A DNA stretch of 64,000 nucleotides from a virus: IMG/VR virus record IMGVR_UViG_3300020447_000001, positions 52,383 to 116,382 of that record; one strand, 5' to 3'. The position numbers were made by a program, and so were the translations under genes. Positions within the stretch are counted from its first letter, which is position 1. Each line of letters begins with the position of its first letter. Of this stretch, positions 17,379-21,416 are shown one piece after another. The notes beneath the pieces were generated by a model. The model was not told where the DNA came from. It saw only the letters and a list, made by a program, of their open reading frames with translations, and searched no databases.

Positions 17379-17741
17379 ATGGTACAGCGATTTGGGCCTA
17401 GTAAACGCAGGACACGGAAACCACCGGAAAACGAATGGCTCCAGTTTATGTCGACGAGTGAAAAAGAGACTCTAAGGCAAAAAGAATGGTTAGATACATC
17501 TCTAGCGGATACTGGTTTACCGGTTCGTGTGGTAAATTGCCTGGAGGAGGCCGGAATTCTTACTGTGGAGGACTTGACGAAACAAACCGCAGATGCGTTA
17601 CTACGTATTACCAATTTTGGCGAGCAAACATTGGGACAATGTACTCGCCTGCTGGCAAAACTTAATCTTCCGCATTGCTTGCAGGAAGAGGCACATGAAG
17701 ACCCCGGTAGGTGTATTAACCTTAAGTCTCCTTCCAGGTGA
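17379..17741 (+). CDS. stand-alone RNA polymerase alpha subunit C-terminal domain protein
   Basis: LADTGLPVRVVNCLEEAGILTVEDL...LLRITNFGEQTL matches the alpha-CTD HhH consensus. Confidence 0.85.
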   Translation: MVQRFGPSKRRTRKPPENEWLQFMSTSEKETLRQKEWLDTSLADTGLPVRVVNCLEEAGILTVEDLTKQTADALLRITNFGEQTLGQCTRLLAKLNLPHCLQEEAHEDPGRCINLKSPSR

Positions 17742-17779: not shown

Positions 17780-17809
17780 AGCCTGGAGTCGATACTCCGG
17801 GCTTTTTTT
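17780..17809 (+). terminator. terminator-like hairpin upstream of the RAMP gene
   Basis: AGCCTGGAGT-cgat-ACTCCGGGCT followed by a T run. Confidence 0.7.
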
Positions 17810-17829
17810 ATGCGCAAAGGAAAAACAAC

Positions 17830-18654
17830 ATGGCTACAATTACTAAAGCAAAAATAGCAAAGAACGGAAAAGTATCGACAGCAAAGAAGGCAACTTCACA
17901 GAGAAAGGATCCTTTTGAAAAGACGCGTATTGTAATACCGGCAATGAAGAAGGCGATCTACAGGGCTACCCTATATGGAAAAACGGATCTGATCGTACAT
18001 GCTTTAGGCACGAAGGCAAAAAAGAAGTTGTTGGACTCAATGGGGCCGAAGAACGCTGCGTCGAAAGTGCGACCTGCTAAAGATCCCGCCGCTGAGTATT
18101 TTGACAGCATGTACATCCTTAACAACAAGTACGACTTTGTGACTGGAGAATACTCCAATCCTCACATGAAAGATCAGCCGTACACGGGCGACATCGACGC
18201 AGATTATGAGACTATTATGCGTCCCATCCGGTACGAAGATTGCACGGCTATTCACGGGGTAGCTTGCGCGGGTATCCGAAAGGGCATGGTTCGTGCGGCA
18301 AAGTCGTGCGGGGCCGTTATGACAGATACCAACTGTAATATACGGGTAGAAAGTCCTTATGGGAACGAGCTTGCCATTAAATTTGAAACTCTTGTTTCTG
18401 GGGAAGTCCCGGTTAAAGTCGGTAAAAACCAAACGGACTTGCGATATCGTCCTCACTATTCAAACTGGAGCATAGATATTGCGATTACTCACCAGTCTGA
18501 GATTATCGGGCCGGAAGAATTGACACAACTCCTTCGAAATGCCGGGGAATTTGTCGGCCTGTCAGAATGGAGAAACGAGAAGGGCGGTCAATACGGCGCG
18601 TACGAAGTAGACCTCAACAGTATTCAATACGAGCTAACTAAAGACAACAAGTAG
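17830..18654 (+). CDS. stand-alone RAMP/Cas7-like protein (candidate Vipr-type effector)
   Basis: N-terminal strand ATLYGKTDLIVH, GIRKGMVRAA helix, DLRYRP.Y..W, C-terminal Gly-rich loop LLRNAGEFVGLSEWRNEKGGQYGAYEV; no other cas genes nearby. Confidence 0.7.
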   Translation: MATITKAKIAKNGKVSTAKKATSQRKDPFEKTRIVIPAMKKAIYRATLYGKTDLIVHALGTKAKKKLLDSMGPKNAASKVRPAKDPAAEYFDSMYILNNKYDFVTGEYSNPHMKDQPYTGDIDADYETIMRPIRYEDCTAIHGVACAGIRKGMVRAAKSCGAVMTDTNCNIRVESPYGNELAIKFETLVSGEVPVKVGKNQTDLRYRPHYSNWSIDIAITHQSEIIGPEELTQLLRNAGEFVGLSEWRNEKGGQYGAYEVDLNSIQYELTKDNK

Positions 18655-18673
18655 ATAATTCTGTTTTCGTTAT

Positions 18674-18705
18674 AAGCCCCTAGCCTCCGGGCTAGGGGCT
18701 TTTTT
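18674..18705 (+). terminator. terminator-like hairpin between the RAMP gene and its partner gene
   Basis: AAGCCCCTAGCC-tccg-GGCTAGGGGCTT followed by a T run. Confidence 0.75.
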
Positions 18706-18718
18706 AAAAGGAGAACTC

Positions 18719-19243
18719 ATGGAAGCTGCAATTAATTTTGAGTATCAAGCGAAGAAGGGTCGTCCGTTATCAGATGCGGTAGCCGAATTGGTGGGTCCTG
18801 AAATTCGATCGCTTAGCCAAGAGACAGGGGAGGAAGTCACCCCTGTCGAGTATTTAAACTGGGTAGCTACTCATCCACATAGTGAAAGTCACGCTTTGTT
18901 TGAGTGGGACGACACAGAAGCAGCGAAGAAATATCGTCTGCACCAAGCACGAAACATTATCAACTCGATTGAGATTAAGATAATTGATCATCGTGGAGAT
19001 GAAACTTTTGTCCCTGCTTGGCTAAACATAAAGGTACAAAACGACGAAGAGGAATCTCCTCGTCAAGTCTACACTTCGTTTGAAAGTGTCGTAAATGATA
19101 ATGAAAAAAGTCAAATAGTGGTGGCACAAGCGAGAAAAGAGTTTATTTCCTGGCGACGACGTTATTTGTTGTTTAGGAATGAGTTACCTCTAGCCGCTAT
19201 TTTTGAGGCTACTGATGAGCTTGAGCTAGAAGAAGAAGGTTGA
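18719..19243 (+). CDS. uncharacterised helical protein abutting the GGY-NN array
   Basis: AGGAG RBS; FEWDDTEAAKKYRLHQARNII motif; stop codon 13 nt before the array. Confidence 0.7.
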   Translation: MEAAINFEYQAKKGRPLSDAVAELVGPEIRSLSQETGEEVTPVEYLNWVATHPHSESHALFEWDDTEAAKKYRLHQARNIINSIEIKIIDHRGDETFVPAWLNIKVQNDEEESPRQVYTSFESVVNDNEKSQIVVAQARKEFISWRRRYLLFRNELPLAAIFEATDELELEEEG

Positions 19244-19256
19244 CACCTTAAAACAA

Positions 19257-20058
19257 GGCGAGGTACGGCTAGGCTAGGTACGTCATGTTCAGGTGGGGCG
19301 AGGCAGTCGTGGCTGGTTCGGGCGAGGCAGAGGCGTGGACTGGATGGGCAGTCGGGGCGAGGTCGGGCAAGGCAGCGTGGGGTCTGGTAGGGCAGGGCAG
19401 TCATGTCACGGACGGGCGAGGCAAGTCCGGGGCGGGCAAGGCCTGGCAGTCAAGTCAGGGTTTGGTCTGGAACGGCTAGGCTAGGCTGGGTCGGGCGTGG
19501 TTTGGCAGTCAGGGCGAGGCGAGGTCCGGTTTGGTGCGGAATGGTGGGATATGTAATGGCTGGTCGTGGCTGGTTCTGGCAGTCGGGGCTTGGTGGGGTA
19601 CGGTAAGGTTTGGTTGGGTATGGTCTGACTTGGCAGTCTCGGCGAGGTCGGGCTAGGCTAGGCTAGGCTGGGTCGGGCATGGTGAGGCAGTCATGGCAAG
19701 TTCAGACTTGGCTAGGTAGGGCGGGCTCGGGCACGGCAGTCACGGCTAGTTCGGGAGTGACAAGGCGGGTTCAGGTCAGGTACGGCAAGGCAGTCAAGGC
19801 GGGGAAAGGCTGGGCTAGGCTGGGTGGGGTCTGGACAGGCAGTCACGGTGAGGTCTGTTGCGGTGAGTCGGGTACTGGTAAGGACGGGTTCGGCAGGCAT
19901 GGTCGGGCAGCGTAGCTCATGGCGAGGCCAGGCGAGGCCAGGCACGGCAGTCAAGGCGATGTGGGGTGTGGCTTGGCTAGGTAGGGCTTGGACAGTCGAG
20001 GCAGTCTAGTCATGACAAGGCTAGGTGTGGCGGGGTGCAGGTAAGGCAGTCACGTCCA
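19257..20058 (+). ncRNA. GGY-NN pentamer array punctuated by GGCAGTC (candidate guide-RNA array)
   Basis: About 130 pentamers, mostly GG(C/T)NN; 14 perfect GGCAGTC delimiters, mostly spaced 9+5n nt; ends at a terminator. Confidence 0.75.
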
Positions 20059-20064
20059 GCTATG

Positions 20065-20104
20065 AACACCGCAAGTGCTACCATGCGCTTGCGGTGTTTT
20101 TTTT
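20065..20104 (+). terminator. intrinsic terminator closing the array
   Basis: AACACCGCAAGTGC-taccat-GCGCTTGCGGTGTT followed by a T run. Confidence 0.85.
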
Positions 20105-20109
20105 CTCTG

Positions 20110-20400
20110 GTACAAACCCTGGTACTTTTTTAGGGGGGACAAAAAGGGAGTCATATATTAGCCGATTAGACCGCAACTGCGCCGCAGCTAATTACCGGGG
20201 TTTGTACTAGCGCCGCAGCTAGGACGCAGCTGAGGACGCACTTGGGACGCACTTGTAATGCACTTGGAACGCACACTCCAGTGCACATTTTCTGCATATT
20301 TTCTGCACATTTTCTGCATACTGGAGTGCACATTTTCTGCACAATGGGCTGAGGACGCACTTGGGACGCACACTGGAGTGCACATTTTCTGCACAATGGG
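20110..20400. repeat. non-coding nested direct/inverted repeat tract (iteron/ori-like)
   Basis: (C/T)ATTTTCTGCA x5, multiple GGACGCAC copies, 28-bp and 24-bp direct repeats, 15-bp inverted repeat at 20110-20124/20193-20207. Confidence 0.75.
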
Positions 20401-20417: not shown

Positions 20418-21416
20418 TTTACCTCCTACAATAACTTAACGCGTCCCTTATACTACGTATAAGAAAGGCGAGCATGATTAAACGAATTCCACTGGGGCTG
20501 CAAGACATACTGACCCGAATCGAAGATCCGTCGGACGCATTCACATTTAGTCGTTGGGGTGATGGCGAATGGCAAGCGATTGCAGGGGCGAGAAGCCGTA
20601 GTAATCGAGACGGGCACAGGTATTTCCCAGAAATGGGCAAAGAACTACGCCAAATCTTGCTGGAACAGCCAGATTACGTTATGGGCATGCAGGGATTAGC
20701 CCTGCGGGTCATGGGAGACAAAATTAACACGCAAGTTAAAGCCGCAGGCCTAGATTACGTCGATTGGGTAGATTCGGATGTATTTCACCAAGCTGCTTTA
20801 AACGGACATCTCTATTGCGTTGTAAACGCAGTAAATACACGAAAGGTGTTGCTGGTTGGTCCACCCCATCTAAGGAAGGTCAATACAAATACAAATTTAC
20901 CCCTACATTATTGGGAATTTGTAGAGGTCTCGCCAAAGAATGCTTATCTGGATATAGAGCGCGTAATAGGGGATATAGAGCAAATTTTAGCAGAATACAA
21001 AGGAAAAGAGCCTTTGTGTATCTCAGTAAGTGCCAGCTTACCTGCGGGTATTATTCTTCACAGAATATACCCATTAACCAAGGGGCGACACACTGTAATA
21101 GACTTCGGATGTTTGTGGGATCCGTTAGCTGGTGTAATTACAGCGGGATATCACAAGGAGCAAGGTATTAAAGCTATTGTGGAAGCTAGAAGTACAGAAC
21201 CTTACATCACGGAAGTAAGTGAAGAACAGTAACACCTATTTACTATAGTAACATAGCATATGTTACTGTGCAATAAGAAGGTAATTTACTACGTAAATCC
21301 ATATGGAATTGGCGAAGATTAACAGATAAGTAATTTACTTAAGATACAGGGAGAAAAAAGACTCCCTGTTCTTATACGTAGTATAAGGGACGCGTTAAGT
21401 TATTGTAGGAGGTAAA
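20418..21416. mobile_element. 999-bp cassette with perfect 48-bp terminal inverted repeats, no transposase
   Basis: 20418-20465 is the exact reverse complement of 21369-21416; GT dinucleotide on both flanks. Confidence 0.6.
20474..21232 (+). CDS. GT-D fold (DUF1792-like) glycosyltransferase-related protein
   Basis: FTFSRWGDGEW and IDFGCLWD motifs. Confidence 0.65.
   Translation: MIKRIPLGLQDILTRIEDPSDAFTFSRWGDGEWQAIAGARSRSNRDGHRYFPEMGKELRQILLEQPDYVMGMQGLALRVMGDKINTQVKAAGLDYVDWVDSDVFHQAALNGHLYCVVNAVNTRKVLLVGPPHLRKVNTNTNLPLHYWEFVEVSPKNAYLDIERVIGDIEQILAEYKGKEPLCISVSASLPAGIILHRIYPLTKGRHTVIDFGCLWDPLAGVITAGYHKEQGIKAIVEARSTEPYITEVSEEQ

What the first reader, a model, noticed from the sequence alone, without database searches (positions are those of the whole stretch)
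17830..20104. Stand-alone RAMP/Cas7-like gene + partner + array: candidate phage RNA-guided system without CRISPR repeats
Seen: a compact locus bounded by terminators (17780 and 20065) holds a 274-aa protein ending in a RAMP-type Gly-rich loop (AGEFVGLSEWRNEKGGQYGAYEV), a 174-aa partner gene and the array. There is no cas1/2/3/10 and no CRISPR array in the window. Established: Cas7/RAMP subunits polymerise along guide RNA with a fixed nucleotide period. Inference: one protomer binds per pentamer, giving an 8-10-mer filament per unit. With no nuclease in the locus, the likely output is DNA binding or transcriptional silencing, e.g. against competing phages or host defence genes.
Basis: partly seen in the sequence, partly recalled or inferred. 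Interest (0 to 1): 0.92.

Follow-up and report, generated by a model that had tools for sequence, protein, structure and literature searches.

The report
Phage VIPR RNA-guided silencing locus
This is a real example of an already described kind of system: a phage VIPR locus with a Cas7-like protein, an accessory gene and about 15 guide RNAs made of five-letter repeats, whose first guide reads the start of the bacterial queE gene.

Summary
A 274-aa gene (17830-18654), a 174-aa partner (18719-19243) and an ~800-nt array of NNGGY pentamers (19255-20051) sit between terminators, with no Cas1, CRISPR-repeat RNA family or CRISPR-like tandem repeat.

It is a VIPR system (Viral Interference Programmable Repeat), described in three 2026 bioRxiv preprints. 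This scan has also noted VIPR loci in at least 211 other genomes.

- **Linkage:** homologues in marine relatives, Gordonia phages, SUSP2 and LESphi2 all lie beside GGY/NN arrays.
- **Local features:** the array has no tails. Units are CAGTC plus 9-14 pentamers and overlap by one base, like the published "staggered" arrays. The accessory gene is not vap1.
- **Target:** the first guide, read by the published 1-nt-skip rule, exactly matches codons 5-14 of queE in two Marinimicrobia genomes. Two relatives keep this guide, and one relative has a second queE guide. Targets of the other guides were not found.

It is a new member of a known kind.

The parts
17780..17811 (+). Intrinsic-terminator-like hairpin that closes the upstream operon
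   Evidence: Scan hit: 10-pair stem followed by a T-run.
17830..18654 (+). vipr gene: 274-aa stand-alone RAMP/Cas7-like protein. It has a Lys-rich, lower-confidence N-terminal tail (residues 1-~38), an RRM core, a thumb hairpin (~187-211, with R205/R207) and a G-loop (243-257, with E246-W247-R248).
18677..18706 (+). Terminator-like hairpin between vipr and the accessory gene
   Evidence: A weak NsiR1/toxic-sRNA Rfam hit here is just this hairpin.
18719..19243 (+). Accessory (vap-like) gene, 174 aa, with a conserved FEWDD..A..YRL.QAR motif. It belongs to a different family from SUSP vap1.
   Evidence: phrog_15946. Homologous to the partner genes of Gordonia phages Ecliptus g20 and Pipp g44. No similarity to SUSP2 gp039 or the LESphi2 partner. 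No PDB relative. Always follows vipr in the marine relatives.
19255..19304 (+). First vrRNA unit: 10 pentamers with no leading CAGTC. Its NN string, read with one skipped base, spells K-E-T-Y-Y-T-I-Q-G-E, the start of queE.
   Evidence: 19/20 NN identical to a guide conserved in relatives L008 and L013. Exact 20/20 matches in two Marinimicrobia genomes at codons 5-14 of QueE.
19304..20051 (+). Fourteen CAGTC-delimited intervals. Nine are regular units of 9-14 NNGGY pentamers, starting at 19349, 19398, 19447, 19506, 19580, 19634, 19688, 19737 and 19791. Irregular or decayed units start at 19304, 19840 (109 nt), 19948, 19993 (10-nt stub) and 20002.
   Evidence: The same grammar occurs in relatives L001, L008, L009/L010 and L013.
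20064..20109 (+). Strong intrinsic-terminator-like hairpin (15 pairs plus a T-run) that ends the array transcript

Best explanation
The locus is a VIPR system of a marine phage. The 274-aa Vipr protein is a minimal Cas7-like RAMP. By homology to SUSP1 Vipr, it polymerises along each vrRNA with one protomer per NNGGY pentamer. The thumb and G-loop clamp the GGY bases and present the NN dinucleotides. The NN string pairs with double-stranded DNA that reads NN-x-NN-x..., skipping every third base. The filament blocks transcription without cutting.

The array is transcribed on the + strand with or after the accessory gene and ends at the terminator at 20064. It yields about 15 tail-less guides of 9-14 pentamers joined by CAGTC, each overlapping the next by one base.

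The leader-proximal guide is aimed at the first codons of queE (7-carboxy-7-deazaguanine synthase), most likely that of a Marinimicrobia-type host.

Shown here:
- homology, fold and conserved contact residues;
- array grammar and conserved gene-array linkage;
- guide-to-queE matches with controls.

Inferred from the preprints:
- filament assembly;
- the skip rule applying to this clade;
- silencing as the output.

Not known:
- how units are cut apart;
- what the accessory protein does;
- what the other guides target.

The confidence given is for 'this is a VIPR system working as published'. The queE-target part alone I put at about 0.65.
For: - **Homology to a characterised Vipr.** tblastn hits SUSP1/SUSP2. 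The family profile hits PDB 36pp 'SUSP1 Vipr protein' at E 2.2e-8. hhalign gives 98.6% probability.
- **Contact residues.** The SUSP1 residues that hold GGY (R138, D177, W178, R179; paper) align to R207, E246, W247 and R248. R207 is invariant and R248 at least 90% conserved in 101 family members. The close-homologue alignment keeps E246, W247 and R248 invariant.
- **Fold.** AF2 pLDDT 91.9. Best solved matches are all Cas7-type RAMPs.
- **Family size.** 1624 representatives at E<=1e-3.
- **Array statistics.**
- **Linkage.** Arrays lie next to vipr homologues in IMG/VR relative L001, four marine metagenome loci, Gordonia phages Ecliptus and Pipp, E. coli phage SUSP2 and Pseudomonas phage LESphi2.
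- **Guide turnover.** Few guides are shared even at 90% protein identity.
- **queE guide.** NN positions are identical (20/20) between L008 and L013 while GGY positions differ, and the window copy is 19/20. There are 17 hits at <=1 mismatch in 16 of 301 Marinimicrobia genomes, two of them exact, against 0 for the reversed control. The match sits at codons 5-14 of a TIGR04508 QueE (332 bits, cut-off 240). The 0-skip and 2-skip versions find nothing in the same genomes.
- **Second queE guide.** A guide in L013 hits the same region 4 codons downstream, in frame, at 20/22. None of 300 permuted guides reaches that score (maximum 17).
- **No self-target.** No guide reaches 80% NN match in the phage's own genome.
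Against: - No expression, processing or binding data exist for this locus or this clade. The preprint says staggered arrays were not among the architectures it confirmed by sRNA-seq.
- The skip rule was established for type II systems, and this locus has a different accessory gene.
- The N-terminal SUSP1 contact residues (H17, K33, E71/M72) could not be aligned, because sequence similarity covers only the C-terminal ~70 residues.
- The window's other regular guides are unassigned. Six of the nine were searched beyond the phage's own genome, and none gave a convincing target.
- A 20-base gapped pattern is expected to hit a 596-Gb collection about once by chance, and one hit on a conserved motif multiplies. 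The >=120 queE hits therefore count as one event. The case rests on guide conservation, the second guide and the variant match.
- The host is not known.
Confidence: 0.9

Rival explanations
1. The array RNA is a sponge or scaffold bound by a ring or filament protein. It would work like TRAP on GAG/UAG repeats or CsrA on CsrB, titrating an RNA-binding factor, with no DNA targeting and no information in the NN positions.
For: A period-5 repeat with a fixed trinucleotide resembles TRAP sites (own knowledge). The array is G-rich, C-poor and transcribed, and ends in a terminator. Most guides have no identified target.
Against: - The protein is a sequence homologue of SUSP1 Vipr, for which DNA targeting by the NN code was shown.
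- NN strings are conserved while GGY positions drift in the queE guide.
- Two guides converge in frame on one gene.
- The repeat is GGY, not the GGA used by CsrA.
Confidence: 0.04
2. The tract works as DNA rather than RNA: a G-quadruplex or R-loop-prone origin or priming region, or an iteron or centromere array bound by the two proteins.
For: GC skew reaches +0.45 and GG occurs every 5 nt, which could form two-tetrad quadruplexes. An 11-nt iteron-like repeat tract follows at 20214-20343.
Against: - The arrays in SUSP1 were shown to be transcribed into ~100-nt RNAs that co-purify with Vipr.
- The array position relative to the genes varies between lineages (before, between or after), while strand and terminator are kept.
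- The 11-nt repeats are not seen after the array in L001.
Confidence: 0.03
3. It is a true VIPR, but the queE match is not a host-silencing function. The guide recognises the conserved QueE N-terminal motif wherever it occurs, and its real prey is a rival phage or mobile element carrying 7-deazaguanine DNA-modification genes. Alternatively, it is a decoy site.
For: - Published natural VIPR targets are satellites, prophages, other VIPRs and viruses, and satellite-encoded guides can redirect phage VIPR to host decoy sites.
- Phages often carry queC/D/E for DNA modification (own knowledge).
- The relatives' version of the guide matches queE in many phyla.
- An earlier check in this scan found that a broad 'panel against many' reading failed on other DNA.
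Against: - The relatives' version gave 0 exact hits in 2.9 million IMG/VR contigs.
- The two contexts examined in detail are chromosomal queC-queE and queC-queE-queD-queF operons.
- The window's one-base variant matches a Marinimicrobia-specific codon exactly. In 151 Planctomycetota genomes, only the seed genome matched.
Confidence: 0.3

Closest known systems
Type II VIPR of Escherichia phage SUSP1 and the Pseudomonas fulva prophage (bioRxiv 10.64898/2026.04.26.720920 and 10.64898/2026.04.26.720927; PDB 36pp)
   Same: - A stand-alone Vipr RAMP with a thumb Arg and a G-loop [DE]-W-R.
- A two-gene operon with no cas genes.
- GGY/NN pentamer guides of 9-16 repeats.
- A phage-borne locus.
- One guide obeys the 1-nt-skip, wobble-aligned rule.
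   Different: - The Vipr here is 274 aa rather than ~195. It has a Lys-rich N-terminal tail, extra helices at ~86-140 and a 4-residue longer G-loop.
- The accessory gene is unrelated to vap1.
- Guides have no 3' tail or pseudoknot. They form one contiguous array of ~15 units, not 4 separate ~100-nt RNAs.
- The assigned target is a chromosomal biosynthesis gene, not a satellite or prophage.
'Staggered' vrRNA arrays (same preprint, fig. S18 legend)
   Same: The legend describes vrRNAs derived from positions that overlap by 1 nt, where the end of one marks the start of the next. Here, the final C of each unit is the first C of the next CAGTC, which makes unit lengths exact multiples of 5.
   Different: The figure, the type assignment and the supplementary tables are not held, so identity with that class could not be verified. 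The preprint did not confirm this architecture by sRNA-seq.
Class 1 CRISPR backbone subunits (Csm3/Cmr4/Cas7; for example 6IFN chain E, 9G9F chain D)
   Different: - About 9% identity.
- Period of 5 nt with three bases sequestered, instead of 6 nt with one flipped.
- The sequence-specific GGY anchor lies inside the guide.
- No CRISPR repeats, Cas1, Cas6, or large or small subunit.
VIPR loci of Gordonia phages Ecliptus (g19-array-g20) and Pipp (g42-array-g44)
   Same: The Vipr family is the same (25-29% identity), and so is the accessory family (26% identity, E 5e-11 and 2e-9). A GGY/NN array is adjacent.
   Different: In these phages the array lies between the two genes, is short (~260 nt), and sits next to the HTH/cro-type regulators of temperate phages. 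In Pipp the array is annotated as protein gene 43.

Membership tests
VIPR system | Effector is a homologue of a characterised Vipr protein | tested here: met
   Profile A1 hits PDB 36pp_D 'SUSP1 Vipr protein' at E 2.2e-8. tblastn hits SUSP1/SUSP2 at E 4e-5. hhalign gives 98.6% probability. Similarity covers only the C-terminal ~70 residues.
VIPR system | Residues that clamp GGY: thumb Arg (SUSP1 R138) and G-loop D177-W178-R179 | tested here: met
   They align to R207 and to E246-W247-R248. R207 is invariant and R248 at least 90% conserved in 101 sequences. D to E is conservative.
VIPR system | N-terminal contacts (SUSP1 H17, K33, E71/M72) | tested here: inconclusive
   No reliable alignment of the N-terminal halves was obtained. 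No superposition on 36pp was possible with the tools used.
VIPR system | Adjacent tandem YNNGG (GGY/NN) repeats, at least 4 per vrRNA and typically 9-16 | tested here: met
   About 15 units of 9-14 pentamers. Lag-5 signal is 94 against 34.7 +/- 5.7 in shuffles. Positional composition is given.
VIPR system | Minimal locus: vipr plus one accessory (vap) gene, with no cas genes and no CRISPR array | tested here: met
   Two genes between terminators. No Cas1 in the record, no CRISPR-DR family and no CRISPR-like repeats. The accessory family is not vap1, and which of vap2-6 it is, if any, could not be checked. Cas2, Cas3 and Cas10 were not searched by profile.
VIPR system | Guides match natural DNA targets by the 1-nt-skip rule at >= 80% NN, and do not self-target | tested here: met
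   This is met for one guide of about 15. Unit 19255-19304 matches queE exactly in two genomes, with skip-0, skip-2 and reversed controls empty. No self-target reaches 80%. The other regular guides are unassigned.
VIPR system | vrRNAs are expressed, processed and bound by Vipr, and the complex silences transcription | not testable with these tools
   This needs sRNA-seq, pull-down and reporter assays.
CRISPR-Cas (class 1) | CRISPR repeat-spacer array and adaptation genes (cas1/cas2) | tested here: not met
   The locus is therefore not a CRISPR-Cas system, although its effector shares the Cas7 fold. Cas2 was not searched by profile.

The most novel reading that the evidence does not exclude
In this marine clade, VIPR is used against the host chromosome rather than against rival mobile elements. 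A guide kept at the head of the array, and conserved across phages whose Vipr proteins are only 67-90% identical, silences the host's queE from its first codons. That would shut down preQ0/queuosine (7-deazaguanine) synthesis during infection. The guide's one-base variant would then point to Marinimicrobia (SAR406) as the host.
Probability: 0.4. Interest if true: 0.6.

Novelty: new member of a known kind. Interest (0 to 1): 0.38.

Why it matters
The class itself is no longer news. It was published in 2026 with biochemistry and cryo-EM, and this scan has seen it in hundreds of genomes.

This locus adds three things:
- a well-resolved example of the tail-less, one-base-overlapping array architecture that the preprint did not verify experimentally. 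It has a clear junction word (CAGTC) and 10 to at least 25 units per array in relatives;
- an accessory-gene family shared between marine phages and Gordonia phages;
- a reasonably supported natural target that is a chromosomal housekeeping gene.

If the queE reading holds, VIPR guides can serve host takeover as well as inter-element warfare. Guide sequences could then be used to assign hosts to uncultured marine phages.

Tried and rejected
**Readings held before the literature search, then dropped**
- I considered a TRAP-like or CsrA-like RNA sponge, a G-quadruplex or R-loop origin, a Chi or primase-site array, and pentapeptide coding. I dropped them once homology to SUSP1 Vipr was found. No long ORF crosses the array.
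- Rfam has no match.

- The first AF2 run, with 13 sequences, was poor (pLDDT 53). A 101-sequence alignment fixed it.
Relatives were fetched with the search for related loci instead.
- The accessory protein has no Pfam, PADLOC, NCBIfam or PDB hit. The ESM Atlas gives only unnamed viral clusters.

**Target searches that led nowhere**
- Guide 19634 had no exact hit in IMG/VR, metagenome contigs or genome contigs.
- Guide 19580 had none in IMG/VR.
- The 19447 consensus had none in IMG/VR.
- Guide 19349 had one hit, out of wobble phase (L006). Guide 19791 had one hit in a 61% GC contig (L007). Guide 19398 had one hit (L156). All three are at the expected chance rate.
- An apparent pile-up of clade guides on contig G001 was not above permuted-guide controls.
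- Five window guides were searched in five Marinimicrobia genomes. None gave a credible hit.
- Guides from relative L001 do not target this phage.
- The L008/L009 guide spelling ITREKWQKL exactly matches two homologous 764-aa phage proteins. That is a single family, so chance is not excluded.

**Other checks**
- No queC/D/E/F homologue was found in this phage or its relatives.
- The VIPR type (I-VII) could not be assigned, because the preprint's figures and data tables are not held.
Full report
**What is there**

The stretch holds two + strand genes and a non-coding array, framed by terminator-like hairpins at 17780, 18682 and 20064. Gene A (17830-18654, 274 aa) matches only phrog_4652, which has no known function. 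Gene B (18719-19243, 174 aa) matches only phrog_15946. Neither has a Pfam, PADLOC or NCBIfam hit.

Twelve bases after the stop codon of B, an ~800-nt tract begins. It is 46% G and has a strict 5-nt beat. GG..GG pairs at lag 5 occur 94 times, against 34.7 +/- 5.7 in shuffles. It is the only such tract in the 116-kb virus record.

Cutting at the recurring word CAGTC gives intervals that look like 5k-1 in length. If the final C is shared with the next CAGTC, 9 of the 14 intervals become exact multiples of 5: 50, 55, 60 or 75. Each regular unit is CAGTC followed by 9-14 NNGGY pentamers, with no room for any other element.

**Is the gene-array linkage real?**

Yes, and it is old.
- The closest IMG/VR relative (L001, A 55% identical) has the order A, B, array, with the same CAGTC grammar. 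All 14 of its regular units are multiples of 5.
- Four marine metagenome loci that extend far enough downstream carry arrays of 10 (L009 and L010, which share the same array), 18 (L008) and at least 25 (L013) units.
- Distant homologues of A in Gordonia phages Ecliptus and Pipp are paired with homologues of B. They have a GGY/NN tract between the two genes.
- E. coli phage SUSP2 and Pseudomonas phage LESphi2 have shorter A homologues flanked by units of ~11-13 pentamers, each followed by a hairpin.
- Pooling 70 regular units of the marine clade, pentamer position 3 is G in 95%, position 4 is G in 83%, position 5 is C/T in 92%, and positions 1-2 are free.

**What it is**

A full-text search found that this architecture was published in 2026 as VIPR (Viral Interference Programmable Repeat). 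A VIPR system is a phage-borne ancestral RAMP protein (Vipr), an accessory gene (vap) and vrRNAs made of alternating GGY/NN. The NN dinucleotides pair with DNA that skips every third base, and the complex silences transcription.

A companion cryo-EM paper shows one protomer per repeat. The thumb (R138) and G-loop (D177, W178, R179) hold the GGY bases. A third paper shows SUSP1 using the system against a satellite. A fourth recovers 5-nt-period arrays at scale.

The window's protein belongs to this family by direct tests.
- Its family profile hits PDB 36pp, 'SUSP1 Vipr protein', at E 2.2e-8.
- hhalign to SUSP2 gp040 gives 98.6% probability.
- The four GGY-clamping residues align to R207, E246, W247 and R248. 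R207 is invariant and R248 nearly so across 101 family members.
- With that alignment, AlphaFold gives a confident model (pLDDT 91.9).
- The family is large, with 1624 representatives at 50% clustering.
- There is no Cas1, CRISPR-repeat family or CRISPR-like repeat here.

**How this member differs from the studied type II systems**

- The protein is ~80 residues longer. It has a Lys-rich tail, extra helices and a longer G-loop.
- The accessory gene is unrelated to SUSP vap1 and to the LESphi2 partner. It is shared with the Gordonia loci. Its fold remains unknown.
- The guides have no 3' tail and form one contiguous array with one-base overlaps. This fits the legend of the preprint's 'staggered arrays'. 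That architecture was not among those the authors confirmed by sRNA-seq.

I could not assign a type because the figures and data tables are not held.

**Targets**

Under the 1-nt-skip rule, no guide matches the phage's own genome at 80% or more, as the preprint reports for its systems.

Guides turn over fast, and few are shared even between phages with 90% identical Vipr. One guide is an exception. It is identical at all 20 NN positions in L008 and twice in L013, where Vipr is only 67% identical, while its GGY positions differ. The window carries it as the first unit of the array (19255-19304), with one base changed.

The relatives' version has no exact hit in IMG/VR. It has at least 120 hits in bacterial genomes, nearly all reading KEIYYTIQGE in frame. 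Because a 20-base gapped word is expected about once by chance in 596 Gb, and a conserved motif multiplies one hit, I count those hits as a single event.

Independent support comes from four results.
- **Variant match.** The window's variant (Ile to Thr codon) gave 17 hits at <=1 mismatch in 16 of 301 Marinimicrobia genomes, two of them exact. The reversed control gave none. In 151 Planctomycetota genomes, only the seed genome matched.
- **Position and identity of the target.** The exact sites are codons 5-14 of an ORF that starts MYSIKETYYTIQGEG. That ORF is QueE by NCBIfam TIGR04508, at 332 bits against a cut-off of 240. In the two other genomes examined in detail, the gene sits in queC-queE and queC-queE-queD-queF operons.
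- **Skip-rule controls.** The 0-skip and 2-skip versions find nothing in the same genomes.
- **Second guide.** A different guide of L013 matches the same region 4 codons further on, in the same register, at 20/22. None of 300 permuted guides exceeds 17.

I therefore think the start of queE is a true target of this clade. Whether the owner is the host or a rival element is open, and the rival-element reading keeps about 0.3.

None of the other eight regular guides could be assigned. Five of them were searched beyond the phage's own genome; 19688, 19737 and 19506 were tested only against it and the fetched loci. All hits were at chance level.

**Verdict**

This scan has also flagged VIPR loci in at least 211 other genomes. 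The locus is a new member of a known kind. It is noteworthy for its clean staggered array, its non-vap1 partner and a plausible host-gene guide.

Noticed in passing
window 17379-17741 (+): The gene directly upstream of vipr encodes a 120-aa protein with an RNA polymerase alpha C-terminal domain (PF03118, E 1e-13). It sits immediately before vipr in all 10 marine relatives that have upstream sequence, but the flanking small ORFs are conserved too. This may therefore be plain synteny rather than a part of the system. LESphi2 has a 'sigma factor' gene in the equivalent place.
   Followed up: partly
window 20214-20343: Two sets of 11-nt tandem repeats (GGACGCACTTG about 5 times, then TGCACATTTTC about 5.5 times) lie between the array terminator and the next gene. 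They look like iterons or operators. They are not seen after the array in relative L001.
   Followed up: partly
L003:5569-5838 (Gordonia phage Pipp, gene 43) and L002:5684-5946 (Ecliptus, gap between genes 19 and 20): The Pipp record annotates an 89-aa 'hypothetical protein' exactly over a GGY/NN pentamer tract. This is probably a vrRNA array mis-called as a gene. In Ecliptus, the whole module (two HTH genes, vipr, array, partner) is inserted between the tail assembly chaperone and the tape measure genes.
   Followed up: partly
L001:8380-8910: The relative's array is split by ~530 bp that carry a minus-strand 123-aa ORF with a signal-peptide-like start. Three more regular units follow it.
   Followed up: no
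window 20474-21232 (+) and L008:2987-3730: A 252-aa protein with a weak GT-D-fold hit follows the array here. A 68% identical copy follows the array in relative L008.
   Followed up: no
L154:3300-4199 and L157:341-2635: Two IMG/VR phages (GC 0.57-0.66) encode homologous large structural-looking proteins. Their WITREKWQKL motif is matched at all 18 NN positions by a guide of relatives L008 and L009. The window's version of that guide differs at two NN positions.
   Followed up: partly
whole record G000: The record is a linear 116-kb virus contig that CheckV rates at 52% complete, so the phage may be roughly twice this size. All close relatives come from marine metagenomes (Tara and JGI).
   Followed up: no
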